From the NCBI GenBank assembly GCA_017991895.1, contig JAGOPR010000001.1, positions 13,089 to 77,088 of the forward strand: a DNA stretch of 64,000 bases, in the 5' to 3' direction. Position numbers and translations under genes: made by a program. Source of the DNA: Minisyncoccota bacterium. Its GTDB lineage: Bacteria; Patescibacteriota; Minisyncoccia; Phycocordibacterales; UBA9973. Shown piece after piece: positions 21,713 through 59,990 of the stretch (positions within the stretch are counted from its first letter, which is position 1; the number at the start of each line of letters is the position of its first letter). Below the pieces are notes generated by a model. That model saw only the letters and a list, made by a program, of their open reading frames with translations. It was not told the origin of the DNA and did no database searches.

Positions 21713-21745
21713 AAATTAGTTAGAGATAGTAAGTGATTATTAGGA

Positions 21746-22183: not shown

Positions 22184-22284
22184 AATGTTAGTTAGTAGAT
22201 AGTAGTTAGTAATTAGTAGTTTAGTTATTTTCGAATTCGGATTTTATTTCCTACTATCTACTAATTACTAACTACTTACTAGCT

Positions 22285-22665: not shown

Positions 22666-22721
22666 GAAATTAGTTAGTAGATAGTAGTTAGTAATTAGTA
22701 GTAATTAAATTTCAACTGGGC

Positions 22722-22832
22722 TTACTGTTTTTGCTTGTGTTTAGGATTCGAACAAATGACACGCAAATGGCGGTCACGACGGACCATTTTGCATTTATCG
22801 CACATTAGTTTTACCCGAGCTCGTACTTTCAT
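22722..22832 (-). CDS. rpmJ: 50S ribosomal protein L36 (36 aa), missed by the ORF track
   Basis: Hand translation [36 protein letters not shown] matches the L36 C-x2-C...C...H zinc ribbon; lies between infA and rpsM as expected. Confidence 0.85.
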
Positions 22833-22938
22833 AATAAAATTGATTACTGATATTTTATATAATTAAAATTGCACATTACGATAAAAAGATTCCAACAACT
22901 CAATATCCGTAGAGCAGTTGCTTCTCAATATTTAAATT

Positions 22939-23157
22939 TTACATTCGTCGGACTATCCGACCTCGTCCTCCGTCTGGAGCCATTACTAGCTCTACGGTAT
23001 CACCGACCAAAACTTTGATTCGATGAAGACGCATCTTGCCACCTAAGTACGCGAGTGTTTCCCGCTCGTCAGGAGATAGCTTCACTCTAAAGAGTAAATT
23101 AGGAAGTGTCTCAGTGACTGTTCCTACTACCGGTTTTTCATCTTGGTTTTTACCCAT
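22939..23157 (-). CDS. infA: Translation initiation factor IF-1
   Basis: S1-like fold; GKMR...I.VL.GD.V. Confidence 0.9.
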   Translation of the reverse strand: MGKNQDEKPVVGTVTETLPNLLFRVKLSPDERETLAYLGGKMRLHRIKVLVGDTVELVMAPDGGRGRIVRRM

Positions 23158-25701: not shown

Positions 25702-25744
25702 GCAGATATTATACCTGCACACTTACATTTTTGAAATAGCAAAA

Positions 25745-27756: not shown

Positions 27757-28257
27757 TTAAAAATGCGTATTATCTGGATGCTTGTCGTCAGGTTTAAGCG
27801 CTATTTTCTTTATTCCTTGTTCAACTTGCCATAAAACGATAAAGACAAAAAGAGTTAGGATCGTCGCAAGAAATGCCGGCATAAAAAGTCCAACGCCACA
27901 CGCCATTCCAATACCCGCAGCCACCCATAGTCCTGATGCAGTCGTAAGTCCTGTGATATTGGTATCACGGAAAATAATAATCCCTGCACCCATAAATCCG
28001 ATACCGCTAATTATCATAGATGGAATTTGTAGAGGGTCTCCTACATTCATCCCGAGAAGTGTGTATTTCTGTATTATTAATTCACTAATAATCACAAAAA
28101 GTGCCGCTCCCATTGAAACAAGCGCGTACGTTCGCATTCCTGCAGCTTTATGAGAAATAATACGTTCAGTGCCGATAATAATTCCAAATAAAAGTGCAAA
28201 ACCTAGCTTGGTAAGAATGTCTAACGTAGATGCATCAAAAATAAAATGGCTTATCAT
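27757..28257 (-). CDS. MgtC/SapB family membrane protein
   Basis: Conserved MgtC N-terminal region; start set to the internal ATG (MISHFIF) 6 nt after a TATAAT box. Confidence 0.75.
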   Translation of the reverse strand: MISHFIFDASTLDILTKLGFALLFGIIIGTERIISHKAAGMRTYALVSMGAALFVIISELIIQKYTLLGMNVGDPLQIPSMIISGIGFMGAGIIIFRDTNITGLTTASGLWVAAGIGMACGVGLFMPAFLATILTLFVFIVLWQVEQGIKKIALKPDDKHPDNTHF

Positions 28258-28381
28258 GTCTAAATTATACCCGCACACCTACTTTTTTAAAAGGGTAACG
28301 AATGTGCATTAACCCCAACGAACCCTAGGACATGACCTCCGTGCAGAGTACTTTAAAAAAGTAGGTGTGCGGGGTATATCA

Positions 28382-29500: not shown

Positions 29501-30074
29501 AGTCGGCTTTGGTATCAGCGAGAGCAGAGTGTGCGTTTTCGTTTACTATCCCAAAATGTTTACAGAGTTCAGCCAATGAAAACCTTGTTACGAGGGGTGT
29601 GCTGTGCAATTTTGCATATGCCATTGAAACTGTATCGAGTCGGTGATAATGCATCTTGTTCTGTATTCCAAAAGCTGAAAAAGCGGAGTCGAGAAATCCG
29701 GCATCAAATGCGACATTATGAGCTACCATAATTGCACCTGCTGTTTTTTCAGAAAATTCTCGAAGTGCCTCTTCCAAACGAACTGCGTCTTTCCATCCTG
29801 TAACTGTATATCCGTTTACTCGTAGCGATGCAGGGTCGGCCGTTTTAAGATTTTCAGGAAATATTTTTTTAGACCATTCCTCGCGCACCGTAAATGTTGG
29901 AGTTTCGCCTGAGCTCCAGTCCTGAGTGACTCGAATGAGTGCAATTTCAATAATCTCGTGAATTTTGCAATCAAGACCAGTGGTTTCAAGATCGACAAAA
30001 ACAAGGTCCGTGCCTTTCATGGCGCCTCCTACTCGACTCACTGTATCTACTTTAAGAATCTCGTTTCCATCCAT
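29469..30074 (-). CDS. DnaQ-like 3'-5' exonuclease (DEDDh)
   Basis: VFVDLETTG (Exo I), HNVAFD (Exo II), HSALADT (Exo III); true start may be the internal Met at 30017. Confidence 0.75.
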   Translation of the reverse strand: MDGNEILKVDTVSRVGGAMKGTDLVFVDLETTGLDCKIHEIIEIALIRVTQDWSSGETPTFTVREEWSKKIFPENLKTADPASLRVNGYTVTGWKDAVRLEEALREFSEKTAGAIMVAHNVAFDAGFLDSAFSAFGIQNKMHYHRLDTVSMAYAKLHSTPLVTRFSLAELCKHFGIVNENAHSALADTKADFELFKKLMQL

Positions 30075-30089
30075 ATGGAGACAAGTATA

Positions 30090-33680: not shown

Positions 33681-34037
33681 TTAGACTTTCGACTCAATTA
33701 ACTTATTTAGCATCCTCAATATTTCCTGCATAAGCTCTTCTATTTCCAAATACTTATCAAGTTTACCAAATTCTAATCTTTTTGCTATTTTTAACTGTGT
33801 CTCAAGTTCTCCGGCTGAACCAAATGAAATAATAAGAAAGTGGGCAAAATCTTTCTTTGTTCCCCGCCTGCTACCCTCAGCAATATTTGATGGTATAGAA
33901 ACTGCACATCTCCGCATTTGAGAAATAATTCCGTACTGCTCCTCTTTGGGAAACTCATATGTTAATCGATAAACCTTCTCTACTAGGTCCATAGATTTTT
34001 GCCAAACGATGAGTTTTTCATAACTATGAACTAACAT
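33681..34037 (-). CDS. Four-helix-bundle protein (23S rRNA IVS-type family)
   Basis: Typical LVHSYEKLIVWQKS...IPSNIAEG signature. Confidence 0.75.
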   Translation of the reverse strand: MLVHSYEKLIVWQKSMDLVEKVYRLTYEFPKEEQYGIISQMRRCAVSIPSNIAEGSRRGTKKDFAHFLIISFGSAGELETQLKIAKRLEFGKLDKYLEIEELMQEILRMLNKLIESKV

Positions 34038-34801
34038 TGTTGTCTAATATACTAACATACTATATTCTATATTCTATGAGAACCATCGTCTTTTTTGATA
34101 CTGAAACAACAGGCAACGAGCCGAAAGATTATTTATGCCAAATAGCTTGGATGATCAAAGGCAAGGAAATGCGTGCAGGTCTTTTTAAGCCACCACTTCC
34201 TATTCCCGCCGAAACTTCTGCCATACACCATATCTCAAATAAAATGGTGGCCGACAAGCCAGCATTTAAAGATTCGCCGGAGTGGAAAGAGGTAAAACAA
34301 CTTTTTGAAAGTGACGATACTGTAGTTGTTGCACACAATGCAAAGTTTGATATCGCAATGCTCGCAAAAGAAGACATTGTTCCAAAGCATTTCATCTGCA
34401 CTCTACGTGTTGCCCGGGCAATGGATCCAGATAGCAAGCTCACAAACTACCGCCTACAATACTTGCGCTATGCGCTTGATTTAGAAGTAGACGAAAATGC
34501 AGCGGCGCATAGTGCCGACGGCGATGTACTTGTTTTAGAGAAACTATTCGAAAGACTAGTTAAAAAGCTCGCCGAACAGAAAAACGGTGATGAGCCAATA
34601 AAAGAAATGATTGAAATTTCGAGCTTACCTTCAATAATTAAAACTATTCCGTTTGGAAAACATATTGGAAAGGCCGTTGCTGAGATAGCAAGCACAGATC
34701 GTGGATATCTTGAATGGCTTCTTGACCAAAAATTAAAAAATCCAGCCGACGAGGAAGACTGGATTTTTACACTGAAAACTTATTTAGGAAAACTGATGTA
34801 A
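34037..34801 (+). CDS. ExoX-like 3'-5' exonuclease with a C-terminal PFGKHxGK...YLEWLL domain
   Basis: FFDTETTG, HNAKFD, HSADGD exonuclease motifs; C-terminal domain resembles the QSregVF_b-type domain; likely start at the internal Met 34076. Confidence 0.75.
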   Translation: MLSNILTYYILYSMRTIVFFDTETTGNEPKDYLCQIAWMIKGKEMRAGLFKPPLPIPAETSAIHHISNKMVADKPAFKDSPEWKEVKQLFESDDTVVVAHNAKFDIAMLAKEDIVPKHFICTLRVARAMDPDSKLTNYRLQYLRYALDLEVDENAAAHSADGDVLVLEKLFERLVKKLAEQKNGDEPIKEMIEISSLPSIIKTIPFGKHIGKAVAEIASTDRGYLEWLLDQKLKNPADEEDWIFTLKTYLGKLM

Positions 34802-35086: not shown

Positions 35087-35199
35087 AACTGTAAATTTAC
35101 GGGTTAAACAATAGAATTGTGAAAGAAGCCTCTATTATAGCCATATTTATTGGCTTCTGTCAATTATTGCACGCCTTAAATTAAGCGTACAATATCCGT

Positions 35200-36030
35200 A
35201 TGTCTGAATACTATAAAGGTAAACGCACACGAAATATTTTTGATCCAGAGGATACGAAACCTTTCGCTCTTTCCCGCTCAAAAATTGATCTTTTTTTAGA
35301 ATGTCCAAAATGTTTTTATCTAGACAGAAGACTTGGTGTCGGACGTCCACCCGGCTTCCCTTTCAATCTAAACTCTGCAGTCGATACACTTCTAAAAAAA
35401 GAATTTGATACTCATCGTGCAAAAGGCAATCCACATCCTCTAATGAAGCACTACGGTATAAAAGCTGTTCCCTTCGCACACGATGACCTAGATACATGGA
35501 GAGAAAATTTTAAAGGTGTGCGCTTTACTCACACACCTACAAATATCACCGTCACTGGTGCAGTGGATGACATTTGGATAAATGACAACGACGAACTTCA
35601 TATCGTAGATTACAAATCGACGTCTAAGACAACAGAAGTGAATCTCGATGCCGACTGGCAGATAGGATACAAGCGCCAAATGGAAGTGTACCAGTGGCTT
35701 CTCCGCCACAATGGCTTTTCTGTATCTGACACGGGCTATTTCGTGTACTGCAATGGCAGAACAGACCTAGAAGCATTTGATGGAAAACTTGAGTTTGATA
35801 TAAAGGTCATTCCGTATGACGGCGATGACTCATGGATAGACAAAACTCTTTTTGATATTCAACGATGTTTAATTTCTGACACAATTCCTGAAGCCGGAGC
35901 CGACTGCGATTATTGTACTTATCGTGATGCAACAGAAGATGAAATAAAATCTCACACAAAATCTACAAAATCCCCTTCCGAGAAACCGCTAAAAATAAAA
36001 AGGCTAGACGAGCCTAAAACATTATTTTAA
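35200..36030 (+). CDS. PD-(D/E)XK nuclease with 4-Cys cluster (Cas4/RecB-nuclease-like)
   Basis: N-terminal CPKC, central IVDYK(S), C-terminal CDYCTY; same arrangement as Cas4/AddB nuclease domains. Confidence 0.65.
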   Translation: MSEYYKGKRTRNIFDPEDTKPFALSRSKIDLFLECPKCFYLDRRLGVGRPPGFPFNLNSAVDTLLKKEFDTHRAKGNPHPLMKHYGIKAVPFAHDDLDTWRENFKGVRFTHTPTNITVTGAVDDIWINDNDELHIVDYKSTSKTTEVNLDADWQIGYKRQMEVYQWLLRHNGFSVSDTGYFVYCNGRTDLEAFDGKLEFDIKVIPYDGDDSWIDKTLFDIQRCLISDTIPEAGADCDYCTYRDATEDEIKSHTKSTKSPSEKPLKIKRLDEPKTLF

Positions 36031-36445: not shown

Positions 36446-36537
36446 TTTAATGAATTTTGTGGTGAATTAACAATTTAAAACAGAATTGATTTACTGTCAA
36501 CAGATTACTCTATGCGTTACTGTGATAGAATTTTCAC

Positions 36538-37587
36538 ATGCAAACGACACTTTTTTTAATCGGCGGTATTGTAGCTGGTATAGTAATCACAGCTTTTTTA
36601 CTTAAGAAAAGGAATATTGTCGAACCAAAAGATGATACTGCTCTCAAGCTATTGCTTGAGCAGATGAACAACCTCACACGCACTGTAGACCAAAAGCTTG
36701 GCGATTCTGCAAAAGAAATAAACCAAGCTATGCGTCATCAGGCAAGTGAGTCGACAAAAATTATTCAGGAAGTTACAGAAAAACTCACGCTTCTTGATGT
36801 GACCAACAAGCAGGTTGTCGGATTTACCGAACAACTCGAAGAGTTGCAAGACATCTTGAAAAACCCAAAACAGCGCGGGATTTTAGGCGAATACTATCTT
36901 GAAGCGCTTCTTAAAAATATTCTTCCATCAAATGGGTACCAAATGCAGTATGGATTTCCAGATGGAACAATCGTTGACGCCGCTGTTTTTATTAAGGATA
37001 AAATTATTCCAGTTGACTCAAAATTCTCACTCGATAATTACAATAGACTTGCTGGAGAAAAGGACCCGATCCGAAAATTGGAATATGAAAAAATGTTCGT
37101 AAATGATCTAAAGCTTCGTATTACTGAAACAAGTAAATATATCCAGCCAGAGAACGGCACCATGGACTTTGCATTCATGTTTATTCCGCATGAAGCTATA
37201 TATTACGACCTACTCGTAAATAACGTTGGTTCCACAGATGAAAATGCTGAAAATTTAATTCAACGCGCCGGCTCAAAGTATAAAGTTATCATTGTATCCC
37301 CTACATCTTTCTTGGCGTACCTGCAGACAGTAATGCAAGGTCTTCGTGCGCTCCAGATTGAGGAAACTGCAAAAGATATCATCAAACGCGTAGGAGAACT
37401 TGGAAAACACCTAAAAGCCTACGACGAGTACCATCTAAAGCTTGGTAATGCCCTCGGTACTGCTGTAAGCCACTACAACAATTCTGGAAAAGAATTTAAA
37501 AAACTCGACAAAGACGTCATGAGAATTTCTGAAGTTTCTCCAGAGCTGGAAACTTTATCGCTCGAGAAGCCAAATCTTGAAGACTAA
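36538..37587 (+). CDS. rmuC: DNA recombination protein RmuC
   Basis: N-terminal TM, coiled coils and the conserved RmuC C-terminal region (FMFIPHEAIYYDLL). Confidence 0.8.
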   Translation: MQTTLFLIGGIVAGIVITAFLLKKRNIVEPKDDTALKLLLEQMNNLTRTVDQKLGDSAKEINQAMRHQASESTKIIQEVTEKLTLLDVTNKQVVGFTEQLEELQDILKNPKQRGILGEYYLEALLKNILPSNGYQMQYGFPDGTIVDAAVFIKDKIIPVDSKFSLDNYNRLAGEKDPIRKLEYEKMFVNDLKLRITETSKYIQPENGTMDFAFMFIPHEAIYYDLLVNNVGSTDENAENLIQRAGSKYKVIIVSPTSFLAYLQTVMQGLRALQIEETAKDIIKRVGELGKHLKAYDEYHLKLGNALGTAVSHYNNSGKEFKKLDKDVMRISEVSPELETLSLEKPNLED

Positions 37588-38310: not shown

Positions 38311-40134
38311 TTAGTTATCATTCCCACCTCGCATCATTTTGAGGAATACTTCATGAGGAATGTTTACTTTTGCGTACTCGCGCTGGCGAGCCTTACCCTT
38401 CTTTTGTTTTTCGAGCACCTTTTTCTTACGACTTACGTCGCCACCTCCCACCATCTTACTGCCGAACATAAGCACATCTTTGCGAAAAGCTTTGATTGTT
38501 TTTGATGACAAGATTTTTCCGAGCGCGACGCCCTGCACTTTCATTTCATATTGCTGTCGTGGTAATACTGATTGCAATTTCTCAGTAGAAAAATCGGCTT
38601 CCTCCTGTGCGCGACGACGAGCAATAACCCGAGTAAATGCAGGTACAACTTCGTCAGCGAGAACAATATCCATTCGAGTTACTGAAGCTGGACGAAGTCC
38701 AGCGATAGTATAAGTAATAGAAGCATAGCCACTTGTTATACTTTTAAGCTCATCAAAAAATCCACGCATCATTTCTCGAAGTGGCATCACGACAGTAACA
38801 GCTGAGCGTCCTTCTCCGAAGGTTTCCGTCTCTCCCACTTCTGCTTCATGCTCATACAAAAATGGCATAAGAATACCGATGTACCGCTCGGGTGTGATAA
38901 TCCGAACGTTTGCCCACGGTTCTTCAACAGAAATTATCTCACTGTCGTTTGGAAATAGATGTGGCGAATAGATGGTCTCTACTTTTCCGTTTCTCTTCGT
39001 CACCATGTATGTAATCGAAGGAGTTGTGACCACAAGTTCCAAATTGTACTCACGACGCAATCGCTCGGTAATAATTTCTAGGTGAAGCATTCCAAGAAAT
39101 CCAGCACGAAAACCACGACCGAGTGCACCGCTTGATTCCTCTTCGAAAGTAAAGGCTGAGTCAGAAAGTTTTAGTCGTGAAAGCGCCGTACGAAGTGTCG
39201 GAAAATCGTCCTGACTTTCTGGATATATTGATGCCCACACGACTGGTCGAGGATTGTCATAGCCAGCAAGTGCCGGTAGTGGATTTTTTTCTGTAGTAAT
39301 CGTATCTCCGACAGAAGCGATACCTGGTTGCTTAACTCCGGTCACGATATAGCCAATCTCTCCTGCGCCGATACTATCGCGAGCCTCTTCTCCGGGCGCG
39401 AAAATTCCCACCTCGAGTGCGATAAATTTTTCTTTGGCGATTGAAAAAAGCAATCTATCATTTCTTTTTACAGAACCCTGAAATATACGAACGTAAACGA
39501 TAACCCCTCGGTGGTCGTCGTATTTAAAATCAAAAACTAGTGCCTTGAGCCCGCCTGTTGATGGCAGGTCCTCTTCTAGTGTGGGTGACGGAACGCGCTC
39601 AATCACGGCCTTAAGAAGCTCGGGTACACCTTCACCTGTTCGCCCTGAAACGGCAAGAACCGTATCTGGATCTATGTCTAGCAATGCACCAATTTCCAGT
39701 TTTACTTCATCGACACGAGCAAGTGGCGAATCAATTTTTGAAACGACAGGCACAATAACAAGCCCTTCTGCCCGTGCAGCCTCAAGGGTTGTTAGAGTTT
39801 GTGCTTGGACACCCTGAGTCGAGTCTACGAGCAAAATTGAGCCTTCTACGGCCTTTAGTGCACGCGATACCTCGTATGAAAAGTCGATGTGCCCAGGGGT
39901 GTCGATGAGATTCAGTTGGTAGTTTTCGTTACCGAGCTTATGTTCCATACGCACAGGTTGCATCTTGATTGTAATGCCACGCTCACGTTCAAGTTCCATG
40001 TTATCAAGGACCTGATCACGCATTTTTCGTGCTTCAATTGTTCCAGTTACCTCAAGCATTCTATCGGCAAGCGTAGACTTGCCGTGATCGATGTGCGCGA
40101 TAATACTAAAGTTTCGAATGTGTTTTAAATCCAT
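38311..40134 (-). CDS. lepA: Elongation factor 4
   Basis: N-terminal NFSIIAHIDHGKSTLADR and full LepA length. Confidence 0.97.
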   Translation of the reverse strand: MDLKHIRNFSIIAHIDHGKSTLADRMLEVTGTIEARKMRDQVLDNMELERERGITIKMQPVRMEHKLGNENYQLNLIDTPGHIDFSYEVSRALKAVEGSILLVDSTQGVQAQTLTTLEAARAEGLVIVPVVSKIDSPLARVDEVKLEIGALLDIDPDTVLAVSGRTGEGVPELLKAVIERVPSPTLEEDLPSTGGLKALVFDFKYDDHRGVIVYVRIFQGSVKRNDRLLFSIAKEKFIALEVGIFAPGEEARDSIGAGEIGYIVTGVKQPGIASVGDTITTEKNPLPALAGYDNPRPVVWASIYPESQDDFPTLRTALSRLKLSDSAFTFEEESSGALGRGFRAGFLGMLHLEIITERLRREYNLELVVTTPSITYMVTKRNGKVETIYSPHLFPNDSEIISVEEPWANVRIITPERYIGILMPFLYEHEAEVGETETFGEGRSAVTVVMPLREMMRGFFDELKSITSGYASITYTIAGLRPASVTRMDIVLADEVVPAFTRVIARRRAQEEADFSTEKLQSVLPRQQYEMKVQGVALGKILSSKTIKAFRKDVLMFGSKMVGGGDVSRKKKVLEKQKKGKARQREYAKVNIPHEVFLKMMRGGNDN

Positions 40135-40181
40135 ATTACGAATGCCACTCTACCATATGCTCTAAAAATTATGTACCTGTC

Positions 40182-47758: not shown

Positions 47759-47888
47759 ATGTGTGTAAAGTAGGACTTACGCAATCGAGCGAGCAACACA
47801 GAAATGTGCCGGTTTCATAGGTCCTATAAAGTTAAATGTGAATAATAATGTTGGTTTCTATAATGCCTGTGTAGTATAATAGCACTAT

Positions 47889-48443
47889 ATGAGTCCCCGT
47901 AAAACTCCCCCTCCACGCCAAAAAGATGAGTCATTTCTTGACTACATGTCTTTTCGAGCTACACGATGGGTTGGTTCACCTGCGTCACTCGTTGTCCATA
48001 CAATACTTTTTATTTTATCCTTCCTGACATATTTCCTTGGTGCAGATATAAACAAAATATTGCTTGTTCTAACCACTATCATTTCCATGGAAGCAATATA
48101 TATTTCGATATTGATTCAACTCACAGTAAACCGTCATACAAAACAACTTCGTGAAGTTTCAAAAGACGTTGAGGACATTCAAGAAAACGTTGAAGACATT
48201 CAAGAAGACGTTGAAGAAATTCAAGAGGACATCGATGAAATCGCTGAGGACGTCGAAGACATTCAAGAAGACGTTGAAGAAATTCAAGAGGATGAAGAAA
48301 TTGAGGAAAAAGCTGAAGATGCAAAAGAAAAAGAAGTACTTGAACGTATCGAGCATTCACTAAAAGAGCTCGGACATGAAATCGCCGAAATGAAGCGTCG
48401 CGGACATACTCCGCCAAACAACCGCAGCATTTTAGGAGAGTAA
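47889..48443 (+). CDS. DUF1003-like membrane protein with an acidic tandem-repeat linker
   Basis: N-terminal RWVGSP...two-TM region; then eight repeats of (V/I)E(D/E)IQE(D/N) encoded by 21-nt DNA repeats. Confidence 0.5.
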   Translation: MSPRKTPPPRQKDESFLDYMSFRATRWVGSPASLVVHTILFILSFLTYFLGADINKILLVLTTIISMEAIYISILIQLTVNRHTKQLREVSKDVEDIQENVEDIQEDVEEIQEDIDEIAEDVEDIQEDVEEIQEDEEIEEKAEDAKEKEVLERIEHSLKELGHEIAEMKRRGHTPPNNRSILGE

Positions 48444-48472: not shown

Positions 48473-49024
48473 TTACTTTCGCACAATTACTGGTTTTCCA
48501 GTGAGAAGCGAGATAACTCGCGATGGCTTCCCTACCTTTTTTCCACCAGATATATAAAAATCTACATGTTCTCCAAAATACTTCTTTGCCTCAAGAATCG
48601 TACTAGCAGGTTTCATTCCTTGAGGATTTGCCGATGGAGCTACTAGTGGGCCTGTTTTTTCGAGTAAAGTCCGCAACGCTTTTTTCTTGGGTACACGAAA
48701 AGCAAGCGACTTCGTTCCACGATGTAAATATTCAAATTTAGAAAGACTACACGGAACTATAATTGAAATTGAACCCTTGTATGATTGCTCAGCTTTAAGA
48801 ACGCTATCTGCTACTCCGTCATCATTTACGCCAAATTTCTTTAACCATGAAAATTTTGGAATAAGAATAATGAGTGGTTTGCTATGGCTACGGCTTTTTA
48901 TCTTATACAGACGAGTAACTGCTTTTTTCGAAAAAGCACTTCCAACAACGCCATAAAGTGTATCCGTAGGCAAAATGCCTATACCGCCCTTTTTTATTAT
49001 ATTTGCCACCTCCGGAGAATTCAT
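48473..49024 (-). CDS. tsaC: L-threonylcarbamoyladenylate synthase (YrdC/TsaC)
   Basis: ILPTDTLYG...KPLIIL YrdC signature. Confidence 0.85.
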   Translation of the reverse strand: MNSPEVANIIKKGGIGILPTDTLYGVVGSAFSKKAVTRLYKIKSRSHSKPLIILIPKFSWLKKFGVNDDGVADSVLKAEQSYKGSISIIVPCSLSKFEYLHRGTKSLAFRVPKKKALRTLLEKTGPLVAPSANPQGMKPASTILEAKKYFGEHVDFYISGGKKVGKPSRVISLLTGKPVIVRK

Positions 49025-49054
49025 GGTAAGAGTCTATCACAAGGTATAAAAATG

Positions 49055-53333: not shown

Positions 53334-53648
53334 TTATTTACCCTGCATGCCTTGCATGAGTTCCATAAGTGGCGTCAAAGCCTCGCGGTGTTTTGCAATC
53401 TGGTCCTTATATTTAGACATAACGCCCATAGTGGCATACGCCTCAGGCATACCCGCCTTTGTTTTTGCTTCAATTTCTTTTTGGATGCTCTCAAAAAGAG
53501 TTTTAACTTCTTTATTCTCTTGAAGGACTTTTAGCTTTTCGGCAATAGATGGGTCGTTCGTGAGCTTTTCCGCCATCATCTCTGCCTGCTCCTTTGACGC
53601 GCCCTTTGCTTGTAATGTTTTCTTCAATAAAAATGATTTTAATCCCAT
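53334..53648 (-). CDS. Hypothetical protein
   Basis: ORF only. Confidence 0.35.
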   Translation of the reverse strand: MGLKSFLLKKTLQAKGASKEQAEMMAEKLTNDPSIAEKLKVLQENKEVKTLFESIQKEIEAKTKAGMPEAYATMGVMSKYKDQIAKHREALTPLMELMQGMQGK

Positions 53649-53756
53649 GCAGGCAATATATCACAAGAACAAGGAACATTAAAGCGCCGAGTATTTGATT
53701 TTTGGTGTTTGGTGTTTTTATGATTTACCTTTTGTTTGCTATAATAAAATGCATAT

Positions 53757-55052
53757 ATGCAGGAAACTTCACAACATGGTGTTCCACTACCACCAAAACG
53801 TATTTTGATTTTGGGAGGTGGGTTTGGTGGAGTCCGAACAGCGCTTGATCTCGCAGAATATGACCTACCGAATATAAAAATTACACTTATTTCGGACAAG
53901 CATCACTTCGAATACACTCCGTCACTATATAAAATTGCGACTGGCCACTCACCTGCCGAAACCTGTATTCCTCTTGGTGAAATTTTTTCTCACATGAAGA
54001 AGAAAAAGTTTGAATTCGTCGTAGACACTATTGTAGGAGGTTCTCTTTCAGAAAAGTATGTTACCGGAGCAAGCGGTTCACGCTACTCGTATGACTATGT
54101 CGTGCTTGGTCTCGGAGCAGAAACAGCATATTTTGGTATCTCTGGAATAAAAGAAAATTCATACGCTATAAAATCTGTCTCTTCCGCTCTCAAGCTTAAA
54201 AATCACCTTCATTACTTGTTCAACAATCATCATAAGTTAAGCAAAGGTGACTTAATGTCACAATTTCAATTTGTGATTGTGGGTGGAGGTCCCGCCGGAG
54301 TAGAGCTTGCTGGAGAAATTCGCCGATATGGAAGAAAGCTTGCAGGAGTACATGGTGTACCGAAGAAACTCGTAACTGTGGATATTATCCAAGCGGCGCC
54401 ACGTCTTCTTCCGACAATGCCTGAAGAAGTTTCTCGTCGAGCTCTAAATCGACTTAATGATCTTGGTGTAAATATTATATTAAACCGTTCGGTTTCTAGT
54501 GAGGATATGCAAGGCGTATATCTAAAAGATATTAAATTTAACGCTAAGACAATTGTATGGACTGCTGGAGTGCGTCCAAGTAGTATCTATGAAAAAATTT
54601 CAGGACTTACTCTCGAAAAAGGTGGTCGTATTGTAGTCGACGACAAAATGCGTGTACCGGAATTCCCCAATGCATTTGCTCTAGGTGACAGTGCTAGTAC
54701 TCCAAATGCCGGCACGGCGCAAACAGCAACTCACGATGGCGAATTTGTTGCTCATGCGATTGCTCGAACTATTCAAGGACACAGAGTGCCAAAATACACA
54801 TCCCACAAGTCTGCATACGTTGTACCTATCGGACAAGAATGGGCAGTATTTACAATCAACAAATTTGTTTTCTCCGGTGAAATTTTTTGGTGGCTACGAC
54901 GTTTTATTGATTTGAAATTCCTTTTTACGATACTACCTATAAGAAAAGCATTTACGGCTTGGCGATCTGGTGGAATTCTTAGTGAATCTTGCCCAACATG
55001 CCTGCAAGCACAAGATGAAAGCGAAGAAAAACCTCTATTCTTCAGGCACTAG
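53757..55052 (+). CDS. ndh: Type II NADH dehydrogenase / FAD-dependent pyridine nucleotide-disulfide oxidoreductase
   Basis: Two Rossmann GxGxxG motifs (ILGGGFGG, IVGGGPAG). Confidence 0.75.
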   Translation: MQETSQHGVPLPPKRILILGGGFGGVRTALDLAEYDLPNIKITLISDKHHFEYTPSLYKIATGHSPAETCIPLGEIFSHMKKKKFEFVVDTIVGGSLSEKYVTGASGSRYSYDYVVLGLGAETAYFGISGIKENSYAIKSVSSALKLKNHLHYLFNNHHKLSKGDLMSQFQFVIVGGGPAGVELAGEIRRYGRKLAGVHGVPKKLVTVDIIQAAPRLLPTMPEEVSRRALNRLNDLGVNIILNRSVSSEDMQGVYLKDIKFNAKTIVWTAGVRPSSIYEKISGLTLEKGGRIVVDDKMRVPEFPNAFALGDSASTPNAGTAQTATHDGEFVAHAIARTIQGHRVPKYTSHKSAYVVPIGQEWAVFTINKFVFSGEIFWWLRRFIDLKFLFTILPIRKAFTAWRSGGILSESCPTCLQAQDESEEKPLFFRH

Positions 55053-55082: not shown

Positions 55083-55784
55083 TTACTTTATCTTTTTTAG
55101 TATTTTTGGAATCAGCGAGAAGTCTTTTTTTAAAGTATCTCTCATTCCCCCATTATAGAGTGCTGATGCCGGATGATATAGCGGCAAAAAATATTCTGTT
55201 TCTATAACTCCCGAAACTGAAGCATTTCTTTGTTGCTCACTCGTTTTCTCCTGCGGAGTAGGATTACTACACCTTAGTCGCAAGCCTCGCTCGCGCCTCG
55301 AACTGCATTCAGTTTCGGGGGTTATAGGAGTAGTTTTAAATTTTTTGTGAATAAGCTTGCCGTGCACTTCGGAAATTTTAAGCTCGGGAAAAAAATTATT
55401 CATTGAGTGCCTGCCTAGAAAAACTATTAACTTCGGTTTTATTAAATTAAGTTCTTCGTAGAGCCACGGGGCGCAAGCCTCTTTCTCGCTTGGCATAGGG
55501 TCGCGATTGTCTGGCGGACGATACTTCACAATATTTGTAATATAAACATCTTCCCTTTTCATTCCAATACCATCAAGCATCTCTGAAAGAAACTTACCCG
55601 CTGAGCCGATAAAAGGGACACCTTCCTCATCCTCTTTTTTTCCTGGGGCTTCGCCAATAAATACAATCGAAGCTGTAGCGGGTCCGTCTCCAAAAACCGG
55701 CTGAGTAGCCGTAGCCTTTAAAACACAGGAATTTTCGTTTGCCCATTTAGTATGAAGCTCTATTAGTTCTTCCTGCTTCGTCAT
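55083..55784 (-). CDS. Uracil-DNA glycosylase, family 4
   Basis: GEAPG motif and HPS-like C-terminal motif. Confidence 0.8.
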   Translation of the reverse strand: MTKQEELIELHTKWANENSCVLKATATQPVFGDGPATASIVFIGEAPGKKEDEEGVPFIGSAGKFLSEMLDGIGMKREDVYITNIVKYRPPDNRDPMPSEKEACAPWLYEELNLIKPKLIVFLGRHSMNNFFPELKISEVHGKLIHKKFKTTPITPETECSSRRERGLRLRCSNPTPQEKTSEQQRNASVSGVIETEYFLPLYHPASALYNGGMRDTLKKDFSLIPKILKKIK

Positions 55785-55855
55785 TTGGGTAGTATACTGT
55801 AACTGTATTACTTGTTAAAGCTCTAAGCTAAAAGCTGACAGCTATAAGCTATTTT

Positions 55856-56059
55856 ATGAATAAACACTATGTTTGTAACGGTGGGTGCAACGGAGTTTCA
55901 GATACAGAAGGAGTATGCGGTGCGGAAACTTGTGCAAAACACGGACAGCCACTTCTTGAATGCTCTTGCCAAGATGGCATGCATGAAGGAATTGTAACCC
56001 CATGTGTTGATTGCGGAAATTTGTGCAAGGAAAATAACAGCGAGGGTTGTAAGGCTTAG
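55856..56059 (+). CDS. Small cysteine-rich protein (67 aa, 10 Cys)
   Basis: ORF with a TATAAG box 6 nt upstream and a strong terminator at 56082-56118. Confidence 0.5.
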   Translation: MNKHYVCNGGCNGVSDTEGVCGAETCAKHGQPLLECSCQDGMHEGIVTPCVDCGNLCKENNSEGCKA

Positions 56060-57644: not shown

Positions 57645-59990
57645 TTATTCTGACAATACGTTTCGTAGCACCTCTTCAGGAATTTCTCGTATTTTCTTTT
57701 CGCCAACTGGTTTCTCTTGTTCTGGTTTTTTTTCTTCTTGTATTGGAGGAACTGGTGTGGGTTCAATTTTTACCGGTTCAGGAATTTTTTTCTCTTCTAC
57801 TTTTTGTACATCTCCGACTTTGGGCGCACTATTTGTAGCTTTTGCAATTGCACTAGCGAGCGCTGACATACGTTCTTCTGAAGCCTGCTTTGATGCGAAC
57901 ACTTTTTGAGTAGGAACTACAGATGATTCTGCTTCTGGTTTTTTAAGTGAAGAAAGAGAAATTGTTTGCTTTTCTGGTTCTGGATTTCCGTTTTCTGGTT
58001 TCGTAACGTTAGAATTCTTTTCGTCTTTAATATTTGCACTTTGCATGTTTTTTGAGAGAGCATCTCCAAGAGCTGATTTCAAAATACTCTGAAGACCTTC
58101 GTGATCAGGAGTCGCACGCTCCTTTGCCGGTCGAATATTTTTTGGTCTTGGTTCAGAAACTGGCGTAGATGATGGAGCAGGTACTGGCGAAACAGGAGCT
58201 TGCTGAGTATGAGTCGCCATTGGTTTTGCCACTGACGCAACAGGTCGAACTTGTTGAGGTGGGACACTAGGGATCGAGACCGTAGGACTAGGTCGTGGAG
58301 TGGTAACCGGAGGCGGAACAGTTACGGGCCTCGACATTTGCGGTCGAGACACGAACGCTGGTGGAACTGGTTTCTTCAAAACAGCTGGACTTCGAGTCGG
58401 AGAAAGTTTTGCTGCGTCAGAATCTCCTTCAGGTAAATATTCGATACCGAGACCAGCAAGAGCTGAGTACGATTGTGGCTCGAGAGCCCGAGCACGTGAA
58501 GTACCTTTGACCGGTTTCATTTCCCCGCTCTTAATTTTCGCAATACAGTCCTTACAATACACAGGTCGGCCTTCTTCCGGCTCAAATGGAACAGTAGTTT
58601 CTTTTCCACAAGAAGAACATACGGCTTTAAATTTGCCTGTCTCTTCAAGACCAACAAGCATTCCACTCCAATCATTGATTTCTTTTTCAACAATTTCTTT
58701 CGGACGAGCGTATAGCTTTCGAGACATTTCTATAATCTCTTGAGCAACAGTACTTTCAACGGGGATTTTAAATGGTGTGAGTGTTTTTGCAGAAAAGGGT
58801 CGGCTTGTTACCCCATCTACCATAAGCTTTAGATAGATTGTGTAGTTTGGAAGGTTCACCATGTCTTGCGGTGTAAATTCCGGCTCAAATTCTTGCTCAA
58901 GATATTCGGCATCTGCGGCACCGATGCGGAAAATGATTATCGTTCCAACGTTACCGAAAACAGCATCACGAACTGCCTCAGAATCTTTTGTGACAAGCTG
59001 AGCAATGTATTGGTGAGCGAGAGTGAGGTTTAGGCGGTATTTACGAGCTTCAGAGAGAATACTCGCAAATGCGTCTGTAACGAAGTTTTGGAATTCGTCC
59101 ACATACAAATAGAAATCTTTACGGTCATCTTCAGGAATACGCACGCGCTCCATGGCGGCGAGCTGGAGCTTGGTAATAATCATACCTCCCAAGAGTGCTG
59201 AGTTGTCTTCACCGATACGTCCCTTTGAAACGTTCACGAGAAATATTTTTCCAGTGTTCATCAAACTAAAAAGATCGAGTGTGGATTTTGATTGTCCGAC
59301 AACATTACGCACGATAGAAGTTGATAGGAATTGTCCAACTTTGTTTTGAATCGGAGCGATAGCTTCGTTACGATATTGATCACGCCAGTTTTCATATTCA
59401 TGAACCCAGAAGGCTTTAATCACTGGATCTTTCAAATTATTGATGACTACCTGACGGTAGTCTTTGTCCACAAGAAGACGCGGAATACCAAGGAGTGTAG
59501 AGCCAGGCGTATCAACAAGCGCCAAGATCGCGTTGTTCAAAATATATTCCATACGAGCAGACCACGCGTTTGCCCAAATCTTTGTAAAAATTCCCATCAG
59601 ACCGGACGCCACAAGATGCTTGTAGCGTGGATCGTCGAGCTGAAGCACATTGAAACCGACGTGGTAATCCGCGTCAGCTGGGTTGAAATATATAACATCT
59701 TTTGCACGGTGAGCAGGGATTGTCGCAAGAATTGATTCGACAAGTTCTCCGTGAGGGTCGACAACGCAAACACCTTCGCCGTTCCAGACGTTTTGAACAA
59801 TCATATTTGCTAGAAGCGCAGATTTTCCGGAGCCGGATTTACCCAACAGGTACATGTGTTGCCGGCGATCTTTTCTTTTGATGCCGAAAACTTGTTCGTT
59901 GGCTCGGAAATTCGTCTTTGCCAAATACGTAAGATTTTTATTAAAGGCTATCCCGTCAGGGAGAAAGTCCATATGCCGTATATTATACAA
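57645..59990 (-). CDS. FtsK/HerA-superfamily ATPase (TraD/VirD4/AAA_10-like) with C-terminal zinc ribbon and Pro-rich disordered tail (paralog A)
   Basis: Walker A GKSGSGKS, VVDPHGE, Walker B YLYVDEFQNF; CSSCGKE...YCKDC; long P/S/T/V-rich tail. Confidence 0.6.
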   Translation of the reverse strand: MYNIRHMDFLPDGIAFNKNLTYLAKTNFRANEQVFGIKRKDRRQHMYLLGKSGSGKSALLANMIVQNVWNGEGVCVVDPHGELVESILATIPAHRAKDVIYFNPADADYHVGFNVLQLDDPRYKHLVASGLMGIFTKIWANAWSARMEYILNNAILALVDTPGSTLLGIPRLLVDKDYRQVVINNLKDPVIKAFWVHEYENWRDQYRNEAIAPIQNKVGQFLSTSIVRNVVGQSKSTLDLFSLMNTGKIFLVNVSKGRIGEDNSALLGGMIITKLQLAAMERVRIPEDDRKDFYLYVDEFQNFVTDAFASILSEARKYRLNLTLAHQYIAQLVTKDSEAVRDAVFGNVGTIIIFRIGAADAEYLEQEFEPEFTPQDMVNLPNYTIYLKLMVDGVTSRPFSAKTLTPFKIPVESTVAQEIIEMSRKLYARPKEIVEKEINDWSGMLVGLEETGKFKAVCSSCGKETTVPFEPEEGRPVYCKDCIAKIKSGEMKPVKGTSRARALEPQSYSALAGLGIEYLPEGDSDAAKLSPTRSPAVLKKPVPPAFVSRPQMSRPVTVPPPVTTPRPSPTVSIPSVPPQQVRPVASVAKPMATHTQQAPVSPVPAPSSTPVSEPRPKNIRPAKERATPDHEGLQSILKSALGDALSKNMQSANIKDEKNSNVTKPENGNPEPEKQTISLSSLKKPEAESSVVPTQKVFASKQASEERMSALASAIAKATNSAPKVGDVQKVEEKKIPEPVKIEPTPVPPIQEEKKPEQEKPVGEKKIREIPEEVLRNVLSE

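What the first reader, a model, noticed from the sequence alone, without database searches (positions are those of the whole stretch)
53736..53760. Promoter-proximal start codons: TATAAT-like boxes 6-11 nt before the ATG and no Shine-Dalgarno on most genes
Examples read directly from the sequence: paaX-like (TAAAAT 10830-10835, ATG 10842); pilM/ftsA-like (TATAAT at 25708-25713 on minus, ATG 25701); mgtC (TATAAT at 28264-28269 on minus, ATG 28257); the 10-Cys peptide (TATAAG 55844-55849, ATG 55856); DUF1003 (TATAAT about 9 nt before ATG 47889); ndh (TGCTATAAT 53737-53745, ATG 53757); uppP. The first four share an identical 6-nt spacer. This implies leaderless mRNAs starting at or within 1-2 nt of the AUG. 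Two of these (pilM-like and mgtC) also share an extended motif GTA(A/G)GTGTGC(A/G)GGTATAAT. The ORF-track start codons for those two genes are probably too far upstream.
Basis: partly seen in the sequence, partly recalled or inferred. Interest (0 to 1): 0.5.

Follow-up and report, generated by a model that had tools for sequence, protein, structure and literature searches.

The report
Leaderless genes in a CPR bacterium
In this ultra-small (Patescibacteria/Parcubacteria-type) bacterium about a quarter of the genes have their promoter's TATAAT box placed exactly where transcription would begin on the ATG, and essentially no gene has a Shine-Dalgarno site. This is the known "leaderless mRNA" way of starting translation, seen here in a lineage where I found no description of it.

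Summary
With a motif-blind start rule (first ATG of each long ORF, 64 genes), a TATAAT-like hexamer lies exactly 6 nt before the ATG in 11 genes (0.83 expected, 0/2000 shuffles). It lies 6-8 nt before the ATG in 15 genes (2.5 expected). Only 1 of 64 genes has an SD-like 4-mer in the SD zone, which is below chance.

The boxes behave as sigma-70 promoters, not ribosome sites:
- Half carry the extended -10 TG, against 5% of other TATAAT-like hexamers (p 6e-41).
- The 6-nt gap equals the usual -10-to-TSS distance.
- The codon after the box is almost always ATG (68 ATG against 3 GTG/TTG).

The same layout recurs in 48 related Patescibacteria loci and in orthologues, and is absent from non-CPR control loci. 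The revised ATG starts for the PilM-like and MgtC genes are supported.

Minor corrections:
- The 10-Cys box is one base off, so its spacer is 7 nt.
- Ndh has two overlapping boxes, at 11 and 6 nt.
- The "DUF1003" label is unsupported.

Leaderless genes are well known in Deinococcus-Thermus and Actinobacteria, and loss of the anti-SD in part of the Parcubacteria is published. This is therefore a new member of a known kind. No TSS data and no 16S sequence were available.

The parts
53737..53759 (+). Ndh (type II NADH dehydrogenase-like) promoter and start. TGcTATAAT at 53737-53745 lies 11 nt before ATG 53757. An overlapping TAAAAT at 53745-53750 lies 6 nt before the same ATG.
53646..53663 (-). 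hyp104 (first gene of the hyp104-YchF unit): TGaTATATT box at 53655-53660, 6-nt spacer, ATG at 53648.
   Evidence: Orthologues in L035 and L002 have TGtTAGAAT / TGtTACAAT at 8-9 nt.
25699..25735 (-). PilM/FtsA-like gene: TATAAT 25708-25713, 6-nt spacer, ATG 25701. It is preceded by a diverged copy of the 22-nt motif (25714-25735).
28255..28291 (-). MgtC: TATAAT 28264-28269, 6-nt spacer, ATG 28257. It is preceded by the 22-nt motif TTTAAAAAAGTAGGTGTGCGGG (28270-28291).
28352..28373 (+). Exact inverted copy of the 22-nt MgtC promoter-flanking motif, 60 nt upstream of the other arm.
   Evidence: (I2)
10827..10844 (+). PaaX_M-domain gene: TGcTAAAAT (box 10830-10835), 6-nt spacer, ATG 10842.
3996..4010 (-). 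DinB/IMS polymerase: TAAAAT 4005-4010, 6 nt, ATG 3998.
5216..5231 (-). hyp231: TATAAT 5226-5231, 7 nt, ATG 5218.
8743..8760 (-). DUF3298/PdaC gene: TGaTATAAT (box 8752-8757), 6 nt, ATG 8745. A terminator-like hairpin and T-run lie directly upstream.
12466..12483 (-). DUF2238: TGaTATAAT (box 12475-12480), 6 nt, ATG 12468.
35188..35202 (+). PD-(D/E)XK nuclease: TACAAT 35188-35193, 6 nt, ATG 35200.
36523..36540 (+). RmuC: TGaTAGAAT (box 36526-36531), 6 nt, ATG 36538.
49022..49039 (-). Sua5/YrdC: TGaTAGACT (box 49031-49036), 6 nt, ATG 49024.
   Evidence: Orthologues L004 and L033 have TGcTATAGT / TGcTATATT at 7 nt.
55782..55796 (-). Uracil-DNA glycosylase: TATACT 55791-55796, 6 nt, ATG 55784.
   Evidence: The L002 orthologue has TGgTATACT at 6 nt.
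55843..55858 (+). 10-Cys peptide gene: TATAAG 55843-55848 (no T at box position 6), 7 nt, ATG 55856.
47875..47891 (+). Coiled-coil/DUF948-like gene: TATAAT 47875-47880, 8 nt, ATG 47889.
34035..34051 (-). 23S-rRNA-IVS-protein-family gene: TATATT 34046-34051, 8 nt, ATG 34037.
13434..13450 (-). GrpE: weaker box TAGTAT 13445-13450, 8 nt, ATG 13436.
2735..2749 (-). hyp132: weaker box TACTAT 2744-2749 (inside a heptamer array), 6 nt, ATG 2737.
16745..16763 (-). UppP: TATAAT 16758-16763, 10 nt, ATG 16747. Predicted leader about 4 nt.
59970..59987 (-). T4SS coupling protein: TATAAT 59982-59987, 9 nt, ATG 59972. The long-ORF TTG start at 59990 lies just upstream of the box.
30072..30089 (-). RNase T-like exonuclease: TATACT 30084-30089, 9 nt, ATG 30074.
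40132..40155 (-). LepA: TGgTAGAGT (box 40147-40152), 12 nt, ATG 40134. Predicted short leader.
   Evidence: The L043 orthologue has TGcTACTAT at 8 nt.
6996..7017 (-). PIF1 helicase: TATAAT 7012-7017, 13 nt, ATG 6998 (the 579-aa call). The long-ORF TTG start at 7028 lies upstream of the box.
18917..23157 (-). IF1-S13-S11-S4-RpoA-L17-L13-S9 cluster. None of its eight starts has an SD-like motif. The spacers are G-poor, stop-rich and unstructured.

Best explanation
The window comes from a Parcubacteria/Paceibacteria-type CPR bacterium (contig JAHZTO010000157.1). This organism does not use Shine-Dalgarno pairing.

For roughly a quarter of its genes, and about half of those that must own a promoter, a sigma-70/sigma-A promoter sits so that RNA polymerase starts on, or within a few bases of, the A of the ATG. 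The promoter is usually of the extended -10 type (TGnTAtAaT) with little or no -35. The resulting mRNA has no 5' leader, or one of at most about 5 nt. It would be decoded by direct binding of the ribosome with initiator tRNA to the 5'-terminal AUG, the known leaderless pathway.

Promoter-distal cistrons and the few leadered genes are started without SD, on very unstructured, G-poor, stop-rich spacers.

Shown here: the fixed box-to-ATG geometry, the promoter-like properties of the box, the ATG exclusivity, the absence of SD, and conservation across relatives.

Inferred: the transcription start position and the ribosomal pathway.
For: Geometry:
- Spacer 6: 11 genes against 0.83 expected. Spacer 6-8: 15 against 2.46. 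No shuffle of 2000 reached either value.
- On both strands, the N6 class is the only spacer that marks ORF-first ATGs (11 against at most 3).

Promoter identity (window contig plus 48 related loci, 119 boxed genes):
- TG at the extended -10 position in 59 of 119, against 307 of 5847 other TATAAT-like hexamers (p 6e-41).
- T-rich upstream sequence and a weak TTG at the -35 position.
- Motif-blind enriched hexamers at -12 to -7 are all TAnnnT.
- The TSS lies 7 bp after the -10 across 49 bacteria (PMC12641261), which puts +1 on the A of the ATG for a 6-nt spacer.
- Codon after TGnTAtAaT at 6-8 nt: 68 ATG against 3 GTG/TTG.

No SD:
- 1 of 64 genes, none in the ribosomal-protein cluster, and G depleted at -15 to -1.
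- Low-GC non-CPR control loci analysed the same way show SD in 8-13 of 16-22 genes and no -10 peak.

Comparative:
- 593 genes in 48 Patescibacteria loci give a spacer histogram of 45, 30, 26 and 13 at 6, 7, 8 and 9 nt, against a background of about 5.
- Orthologues of LeuRS, DUF5671, Sua5, hyp104, UDG and LepA carry TGnTAtAaT 6-9 nt before their ATG.
- 82 of 97 PilM-like homologues begin at the Met that corresponds to ATG 25701. Seven mis-extended database entries read Y(N/T)xxM, which is TATAAT/TATACT plus 6 nt translated in frame.
- Three fetched orthologue upstream regions have TATACT 6-8 nt before the ATG.

Context:
- 9 of the 18 divergently transcribed genes in the window have the box at 6-8 nt.
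- Starts without a box are very unstructured: mean MFE -1.69 against -5.08 kcal/mol for intragenic windows, p 2e-12.
- The anti-SD motif is missing in about half of Parcubacteria (PMC9297842).
Against: - No transcript 5' ends are available, so the TSS is inferred from geometry only.
- The 16S 3' end of this organism could not be read: there is no rRNA in the 82 kb of the contig that could be fetched, nor in any Patescibacteria locus.
- The pooled contrast between operon-first and operon-internal genes is weak (odds ratio 1.6, p 0.07).
- A pyrimidine at -1 is no more frequent in boxed than in unboxed genes.
- A generic -35/-10 scan is not enriched over shuffles (24 against 30.5), so these promoters lack good -35 elements.
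- Six genes have 9-13 nt spacers, implying short leaders rather than none.
- Gene starts were set by a simple first-ATG rule.
Confidence: 0.8

Rival explanations
1. The boxes are real promoters, but transcription starts a few bases before the ATG. The mRNAs would then be short-leadered (3-8 nt) rather than leaderless, and would be loaded by 30S subunits on an unstructured 5' end.
For: - Six window genes have spacers of 9-13 nt.
- The pooled histogram has a tail at 7-10 nt.
- The perfect TGcTATAAT of Ndh is 11 nt from the ATG.
- The -10-to-TSS distance was reported as more variable in the one CPR species with TSS data, N. lyticus (PMC12641261).
Against: - The mode is sharply at 6 nt, both in the window and in 48 related loci. 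This is the canonical gap that puts +1 on the A.
- Spacer 5 is depleted.
- ATG is almost exclusive, as expected for recognition of a 5'-terminal AUG.
Confidence: 0.12
2. The TATAAT-like sequence is an mRNA element: a non-SD, A/U-rich ribosome-binding or S1-binding enhancer on leadered transcripts. It would resemble the non-canonical RBS motifs of SD-poor phyla and would not be a promoter.
For: - The organism has no SD, so some other signal could be expected.
- A/U-rich bias at -20 to -10 has been discussed as a possible S1 site (PMC5397173).
- The pooled operon-first versus internal contrast is only weak.
Against: - The TG dinucleotide sits exactly one base upstream of the hexamer in 50% of cases, against 5% elsewhere.
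- The enriched hexamers all keep T1, A2 and T6.
- The box is absent before all ribosomal-protein and other tightly packed internal cistrons in the window.
- Terminator hairpins lie directly upstream of several boxes, which leaves no room for another promoter.
- In Deinococcus the same motif was shown experimentally to act as the -10 region (PMC12340547).
Confidence: 0.05
3. The pattern is chance in A+T-rich intergenic DNA combined with mis-called start codons.
For: - The genome is 40% G+C, so TANNNT is common (TANNNT row).
- Starts were assigned by rule rather than from experimental data.
Against: - 0 of 2000 shuffles reach the observed counts.
- The peak is position-specific and is seen only for ORF-first ATGs.
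- It is reproduced in independent genomes and orthologues, and is absent in controls.
- The first-ATG rule would favour spacers 5, 8 and 11, where the TAA inside TATAAT falls in frame. It would not favour 6.
Confidence: 0.02

Closest known systems
-10 motif adjacent to ORFs / leaderless genes of Deinococcus-Thermus (Life Sci Alliance 2025, PMC12340547; Zheng et al. 2011, BMC Genomics 12:361, cited there)
   Same: - A TANNNT box lies a few bp upstream of the ORF with a specific spacing requirement, and there is no RBS.
- About 30% of ORFs are affected there. Here the figure is 15-24 of 64-66 genes (23-36%).
- Start codons are mis-annotated upstream of the box in both cases.
   Different: - A different phylum (CPR/Patescibacteria).
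- Here half the boxes carry the extended -10 TG.
- SD is absent from the remaining genes as well, whereas Deinococcus keeps classical RBS genes.
- Nothing here is experimentally verified.
Leaderless transcriptomes of Actinobacteria (M. tuberculosis, Cortes 2013; M. smegmatis, Shell 2015; as cited in PMC12641261 and PMC5397173)
   Same: About a quarter of transcripts start at the start codon. Such mRNAs are translated without SD.
   Different: - Actinobacteria are high-GC and still use SD for leadered genes.
- From my own knowledge, GUG leaderless starts are common in mycobacteria. Here ATG outnumbers GTG/TTG 68 to 3.
Parcubacteria subgroup lacking the 16S anti-SD motif (Tsurumaki et al. 2022, RNA 28:1041, PMC9297842)
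   Same: - The same broad lineage: best hits are Paceibacterota, Nomurabacteria and Taylorbacteria MAGs.
- The genome-wide lack of SD found here is the mRNA-side counterpart of that rRNA observation.
   Different: - That paper describes the rRNA and ribosomal proteins and says SD helices probably do not form. It does not say what replaces SD.
- The 16S of this organism could not be examined here.
SD-independent initiation in Bacteroidetes (Accetto & Avgustin 2011, cited in PMC5397173; Flavobacterium work recalled from my own knowledge)
   Same: Genome-wide scarcity of SD, with reliance on unstructured, A-rich start regions.
   Different: - Bacteroidetes mRNAs are leadered.
- From my own knowledge, their promoters use a TAnnTTTG -7 element and the anti-SD is retained.
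- Here the upstream signal is a classical extended -10 box at TSS distance from the ATG.
Archaeal leaderless genes (Haloferax, Sulfolobus; reviewed in PMC5397173)
   Same: Promoter elements sit at a fixed distance from the start codon. Most first cistrons are leaderless, and internal cistrons use other signals.
   Different: Archaeal genes use a TATA box/BRE at about -26 and the archaeal transcription machinery, and internal cistrons often keep SD.

Membership tests
Bacterial leaderless-gene architecture (-10 box abutting the start codon) | A TANNNT -10-like motif at a fixed short distance (about 6-8 nt) upstream of the start codon, in far more genes than chance allows | tested here: met
   11 genes at 6 nt against 0.83 expected, and 15 at 6-8 nt against 2.46, with 0 of 2000 shuffles reaching either. 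The pooled relatives peak at 6-8 nt.
Bacterial leaderless-gene architecture (-10 box abutting the start codon) | The motif has promoter properties rather than RBS properties (extended -10 TG, invariant A2/T6, upstream T-rich or -35 signal) | tested here: met
   TG in 59 of 119 boxes against 307 of 5847 other hexamers, p 6e-41. De novo hexamers are all TAnnnT. The -35 signal is only weak (32 of 119 against 24 at a control offset).
Bacterial leaderless-gene architecture (-10 box abutting the start codon) | The primary transcript 5' end coincides with the start codon (5' UTR of 0 to about 5 nt) | not testable with these tools
   No transcriptome data are available. The start is inferred only from the 7-bp -10-to-TSS rule (PMC12641261).
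Bacterial leaderless-gene architecture (-10 box abutting the start codon) | The start codon of leaderless genes is (almost) always AUG | tested here: met
   After TGnTAtAaT at 6-8 nt there are 68 ATG, 2 GTG and 1 TTG that open at least 100 codons.
Bacterial leaderless-gene architecture (-10 box abutting the start codon) | No Shine-Dalgarno sequence between box and start | tested here: met
   A 6-8 nt spacer leaves no room for one. Only 1 of 64 genes has an SD-like 4-mer in the SD zone.
Bacterial leaderless-gene architecture (-10 box abutting the start codon) | Translation by direct ribosome/initiator-tRNA binding to the 5'-terminal AUG | not testable with these tools
   This needs biochemistry or ribosome profiling.
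Anti-SD-less Parcubacteria (Tsurumaki 2022) | Belongs to Parcubacteria/Paceibacteria | tested here: met
   YchF best matches (58-76% identity) are Patescibacteria MAGs named Paceibacterota, Nomurabacteria, Taylorbacteria or Vogelbacteria. PilM-like homologues are named Paceibacterota, Parcubacteria or Minisyncoccia.
Anti-SD-less Parcubacteria (Tsurumaki 2022) | The 16S rRNA 3' end lacks CCUCC(U) | not testable with these tools
   There is no rRNA in the window, in the 82-kb stitched contig, or in any Patescibacteria locus.
Anti-SD-less Parcubacteria (Tsurumaki 2022) | Genes lack SD motifs genome-wide, including ribosomal-protein genes | tested here: met
   1 of 64 genes, and none of the 8 genes of the IF1-to-S9 cluster. 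G is depleted upstream of starts.
Anti-SD-less Parcubacteria (Tsurumaki 2022) | Ribosomal protein uL1 absent (this group overlaps the anti-SD-less group) | not testable with these tools
   The L11/L1 region is not in the sequence available.
Bacteroidetes-type non-SD initiation | Leadered mRNAs with a TAnnTTTG-type promoter and an A-rich Kozak-like context instead of a -10 box at TSS distance | tested here: not met
   The enriched hexamers are TATACT, TATAAT, TATATT and TACAAT with a preceding TG, at 6-8 nt from the ATG.

The most novel reading that the evidence does not exclude
A whole class of CPR bacteria (Paceibacteria and relatives) has given up SD/anti-SD pairing altogether and runs on two SD-free modes.
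- First cistrons: leaderless 5'-AUG mRNAs made from extended -10 promoters.
- Internal cistrons: (re)initiation on purpose-built, structure-free, all-frame-stop spacers. In this organism these are 31-37 nt arrays of heptamer repeats such as CTACTAA or TAGTAAA that fill the intercistronic gaps.

This would be a bacterial lineage with an archaeon- or organelle-like initiation regime and a new kind of intercistronic element.
Probability: 0.35. Interest if true: 0.65.

Novelty: new member of a known kind. Interest (0 to 1): 0.45.

Why it matters
- **Gene calling in CPR genomes.** Long-ORF or SD-based start calls run through the promoter. Public protein databases already contain mis-extended N-termini such as MYNVGM..., which is TATAAT translated in frame.
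- **Link to a published rRNA result.** The pattern supplies the missing mRNA-side explanation for the reported loss of the anti-SD in about half of Parcubacteria (PMC9297842).
- **Scale relative to known cases.** It would add CPR to Deinococcus-Thermus and Actinobacteria as bacterial lineages with pervasive leaderless genes. The frequency here (23-36% of genes) is similar to the roughly 30% reported as the highest among the phyla surveyed (PMC12340547).
- **Practical use.** It gives simple promoter and start rules (TGnTAtAaT-N6-ATG) for engineering or heterologous expression of genes from these mostly uncultivated organisms.
- **Evolution.** It bears on whether leaderless initiation is ancestral or a repeated outcome of genome and ribosome reduction.

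Tried and rejected
- **Anti-SD check.** I searched the window, the 82-kb stitched contig and all 80+ fetched loci for conserved 16S motifs. Only two Pelomonas control loci had 16S, and Rfam and ARAGORN found nothing in the window. The supplements of PMC9297842 are not held.
- **'First-AUG / scanning' idea for internal cistrons.** A curated subset of spacers has no ATG at all. An automated test showed ATG depletion of similar size in SD-using control loci (56 against 92 and 41 against 67). It is therefore not a distinguishing feature and I dropped it.
- **Pyrimidine at -1 (YRY 'start' element).** 74% in boxed genes against 67% in unboxed genes, p 0.16. Compatible but uninformative.
- **Operon-first versus internal genes in the pooled loci.** Odds ratio 1.6, p 0.07. 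This is weak, probably because promoters overlap the ends of upstream genes in these compact genomes.
- **Generic TTGACA-17-TATAAT scan.** Not enriched over shuffles. The -35 element is not a useful criterion here.
- **Extended PilM/MgtC motif as a general promoter feature.** Rejected. It occurs only three times in the contig and nowhere in the relatives.
- **Literature.** Nine full-text searches pairing 'leaderless' or 'Shine-Dalgarno' with CPR, Patescibacteria, Parcubacteria, TM7x, Minisyncoccota or Patescibacteriota, or combining leaderless-gene terms, found no description of leaderless genes in CPR. The TM7x transcriptome paper (PMID 35975994) is not held.
Full report
**What the window is.**
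The 64-kb window has 38-43% G+C, with no tRNA and no Rfam match. Its genes were mapped with Pfam. They include DnaK/GrpE, an IF1-S13-S11-S4-RpoA-L17-L13-S9 cluster, several aminoacyl-tRNA synthetases, MurJ, LepA, Obg, YchF and a T4SS-like cluster. The YchF protein finds its best relatives (58-76% identity) in Patescibacteria MAGs labelled Paceibacterota, Nomurabacteria, Taylorbacteria, Vogelbacteria or 'uncultured Ca. Saccharibacteria'. Homologues of the PilM-like protein are named Paceibacterota, Parcubacteria or Minisyncoccia. Exact-protein look-ups place the window on NCBI contig JAHZTO010000157.1 (122,961 bp, GCA_020049755.1). Stitching the flanks gave 82.4 kb, still without rRNA.

**Checking the observation.**
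Every example was re-read.
- PaaX-like, PilM-like and MgtC have a TAAAAT or TATAAT box, a 6-nt spacer and an ATG at exactly the stated coordinates.
- Ndh is TGcTATAAT (53737-53745), 11 nt, ATG 53757.
- UppP has a 10-nt spacer, and the gene at 47889 has 8 nt.

Three corrections are needed.
- The 10-Cys box TATAAG is at 55843-55848, so its spacer is 7 nt.
- Ndh also has an overlapping TAAAAT (53745-53750) exactly 6 nt before the ATG.
- 'DUF1003' is not supported by Pfam.

A second group has 9-13 nt spacers: T4CP, RNase T-like, LepA and PIF1.

**Is it more than chance?**
I used a start rule that ignores upstream sequence: the first ATG of each non-overlapping ORF of at least 80 aa, which gave 64 genes.
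- A hexamer within one mismatch of TATAAT (T1, A2 and T6 fixed) lies at a spacer of exactly 6 nt in 11 genes. The background is about 0.6-0.9 per position.
- Shuffling the proximal 30 nt gives 0.83 (spacer 6), 2.46 (6-8) and 6.28 (6-13), against 11, 15 and 20 observed. None of 2000 shuffles reached the observed values.
- Over both strands of the whole window, box+N6+ATG is found 19 times, and 11 of these are the first ATG of a long ORF. Every other spacer from 0 to 24 gives at most 3.
- The first-ATG rule could only favour spacers 5, 8 and 11, where the TAA inside TATAAT is in frame. It does not favour 6, and spacer 5 is in fact depleted.

**No Shine-Dalgarno.**
GGAG, GAGG or AGGA occurs in the SD zone of 1 of 64 genes, against about 3 expected by chance. 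G is depleted at -15 to -1. None of the eight genes of the ribosomal-protein/RpoA cluster has an SD. The same pipeline on low-GC non-CPR control loci finds SD in 13 of 20, 8 of 16 and 8 of 22 genes. The pooled controls show a clear SD peak at 5-11 nt.

**Promoter or ribosome-binding site?**
I pooled the contig with 48 related Patescibacteria loci, which gave 119 genes with a box at 6-8 nt.
- 59 have TG one base upstream of the hexamer, against 307 of 5847 for all other TATAAT-like hexamers (p 6e-41).
- A T-rich stretch lies just upstream, and there is a weak TTG at the -35 position.
- Without presupposing a motif, the hexamers most enriched at -12 to -7 are TATACT, TATAAT, TATATT, TACAAT, TAAAAT and TAGAAT.
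- After TGnTAtAaT, the codon at 6-8 nt that opens a long ORF is ATG 68 times and GTG or TTG 3 times.
- A study of mapped TSSs in 49 bacteria places the TSS 7 bp after the -10 element (PMC12641261). A 6-nt spacer therefore puts +1 on the A of the ATG.
- In the window, 9 of the 18 divergently transcribed genes, which must own a promoter, have the box at 6-8 nt. No tightly packed internal cistron does.
- Several boxes follow directly on a terminator-like hairpin and T-run.
- A generic -35/-10 scan is not enriched. These are therefore extended -10 promoters with poor -35 elements.

**Comparative evidence.**
- In 593 genes of 48 Patescibacteria loci, the box-to-ATG spacer histogram reads 45, 30, 26 and 13 at 6, 7, 8 and 9 nt, against a background of about 5. 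SD is only faintly enriched.
- Orthologues of LeuRS, DUF5671, Sua5, hyp104, UDG and LepA in other species carry TGnTAtAaT 6-9 nt before their ATG, although the surrounding sequence is not conserved.
- Among PilM-like homologues in which the phosphate-loop motif could be located, 82 of 97 begin at the Met equivalent to ATG 25701 (conserved M-G/S-I/F-F-S).
- Of the 13 with N-terminal extensions, 7 read ...Y(N/T)xxM. This is TATAAT or TATACT plus 6 nt translated in frame.
- Three orthologue upstream regions that I fetched show TATACT 6-8 nt before the ATG.
- The window's own GTG-extended versions read VCRYNIC-M and VCGYNLD-M.
- The public gene calls already use the ATG versions: 392 aa (P0001) and 166 aa.

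**The extended PilM/MgtC motif.**
GTARGTGTGCRGGTATAAT occurs exactly twice (expected 0.04). It belongs to a 22-nt word, TTTAAAAAAGTAGGTGTGCGGG, which has three copies in the contig.
- One copy abuts the MgtC box.
- An exact inverted copy lies 60 nt upstream (28352-28373), forming a perfect 22-bp inverted repeat.
- A diverged copy abuts the PilM box.

The inverted pair is kept in a strain variant (L090), and the word is absent from all other loci. It is a local element, such as a regulator site or a small repeat, and not part of the general promoter architecture.

**How the other genes start.**
Some genes are leadered and still lack SD. DnaK's nearest good box is 26-42 nt upstream. A canonical TTGACA-17-TGcTATACT promoter lies about 118 nt upstream of hyp605. 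Start regions without a box are strikingly unstructured: mean MFE is -1.69 kcal/mol for -20 to +20, against -5.08 for intragenic 40-mers (p 2e-12).

Many intercistronic gaps of 35-46 nt are filled almost end to end by 4-5 copies of a heptamer such as CTACTAA, TAGTTAG, TAGTAAA or CTATTTA.
- The heptamers put stops in all three frames.
- They mostly use only three of the four bases.
- Such arrays are 34 per 100 kb here, against 8.5 in other Patescibacteria loci and 4.9 in controls.
- Where both orientations are present they fold into a long hairpin (S13-S11 spacer, -29.8 kcal/mol, z -4.8).

A 'first-AUG scanning' idea was tested and is not specific.

**What is known.**
- Leaderless genes with a -10 box next to the ORF are well documented. 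In Deinococcus-Thermus the motif was verified experimentally, about 30% of ORFs carry it, and this was called the most prominent of the phyla surveyed (PMC12340547).
- Comparable leaderless genes are reported in Actinobacteria and in archaea (PMC5397173).
- For CPR, Tsurumaki et al. 2022 reported that the anti-SD motif is detectable in only 48% of Parcubacteria. They suggested that SD helices do not form, without saying what replaces them (PMC9297842).
- Nine full-text searches found no paper that connects leaderless genes with CPR under any of its names.
- The library lacks most subscription-journal papers, so this absence is not proof of novelty.

**Verdict.**
The interpretation, leaderless or near-leaderless mRNAs made from promoters that abut the ATG in an SD-free genome, is the best-supported explanation, and I give it a confidence of about 0.8.

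Not shown:
- the actual transcript 5' ends;
- the 16S 3' end of this organism;
- the ribosomal pathway.

It is a new member of a known kind: a third bacterial lineage with pervasive leaderless genes, and the mRNA-side counterpart of a published rRNA peculiarity. The most unusual item met along the way is the heptamer-repeat intercistronic spacers, which I followed up only partly.

Noticed in passing
window 2744-2775, 15174-15253, 22189-22281, 22671-22702, 31091-31125, 33159-33189, 33658-33684, 37991-38023, 46702-46731, 55818-55852, 59989-60025, 61737-61767, 63429-63459: Intergenic spacers are made of 4-5 tandem heptamers (CTACTAA, TAGTTAG, TAGTAAA, TAGTAAG, CTATTTA, GCTAGGT, AAGCTAT). They fill 35-46 nt intercistronic gaps from the upstream stop to 4-10 nt before the next ATG. 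Period 7 puts TAA/TAG in all three frames, and most units lack G or C. Period 7 is the commonest tandem-repeat period in this contig: 34 arrays per 100 kb, against 8.5 in other Patescibacteria loci and 4.9 in controls. L041, L033 and L037 have arrays of similar length with other units.
   Followed up: partly
window 22184-22284 and 22666-22710 (minus strand): S13 and S11 are preceded by the same 32-nt G-free leader (ACTACTAATTACTAACTACTATCTACTAACTA). The S13-S11 spacer also carries the reverse-complement heptamer run and folds into a long hairpin (-29.8 kcal/mol, z -4.8). A similar inverted heptamer pair lies at 15174-15247.
   Followed up: partly
window 28270-28291 / 28352-28373, and 25714-25735: There is a perfect 22-bp inverted repeat (TTTAAAAAAGTAGGTGTGCGGG) with a 60-nt loop between MnmA and MgtC. 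Its proximal arm abuts the MgtC TATAAT. A diverged third copy abuts the PilM-like TATAAT. The pair is conserved in strain variant L090. It could be a regulator site or a small MITE-like repeat.
   Followed up: partly
window 51049-51077 (minus) to ATG 50924: The best canonical promoter in the region scanned (46000-60500), TTGACA-17-TGcTATACT, lies about 118 nt upstream of the 605-aa hypothetical secreted protein. This implies a long SD-less leader containing a small hairpin (ccggagtgatccgg). There is no Rfam match.
   Followed up: partly
public protein clusters P0006, P0008, P0013, P0014, P0024, P0033, P0077: Database N-termini such as MYNVGM-, MLYTVGM-, MYNIRM- and MYTVRM- are promoter boxes (TATAAT/TATACT plus 6 nt) translated in frame. 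'Y-N/T-x-x-M' near an N-terminus is a cheap signature of mis-extended leaderless genes in CPR proteomes.
   Followed up: yes
window 8758-8800, 12481-12504, 49037-49088; L001, L002, L014, L039, L041: Compact terminator-promoter modules: a G+C-rich hairpin and its T-run run straight into TGnTATAAT-N6-9-ATG. The terminator's T-tract doubles as the promoter's upstream T-rich region.
   Followed up: partly
window 10712-10841: DnaK has a 26-42 nt SD-less leader and is divergent from a leaderless 173-aa PaaX_M-domain gene. A 19-nt imperfect palindrome lies at 10774-10813 between them, and GrpE is nearby. This may be a heat-shock regulator and operator arrangement.
   Followed up: no
L081 7263-9995 and 3611-5128 (contig upstream of the window): A 910-aa class-I aminoacyl-tRNA synthetase has a His_Phos_1 (histidine phosphatase) domain inserted between the halves of the catalytic domain. 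There is also a 505-aa HTH_3 plus EPSP_synthase-fold (MurA-like) fusion.
   Followed up: no
window 56114-63978 and L085 8492-9964: T4SS-like cluster: a lamin-tail-domain protein, a VirD4/TrwB-like coupling protein with a treble-clef zinc finger, two paralogous 551/566-aa proteins starting MQ(T/N)ET(K/R)xCQxC, and a VirB4-like DUF87 ATPase just beyond the window.
   Followed up: no
window 55856-56059: A 67-aa peptide with 10 Cys (MNKHYVCNGGCNGVSDTEGVCGAETCAKHG...) has a 53%-identical homologue in L043 and a 20-bp-stem terminator right after it (56075-56119).
   Followed up: no
window 48158-48289: A 21-nt tandem repeat (6.3 copies, 79% matches) lies inside the coiled-coil/DUF948-like gene. It is in frame, giving 7-residue protein repeats.
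   Followed up: no
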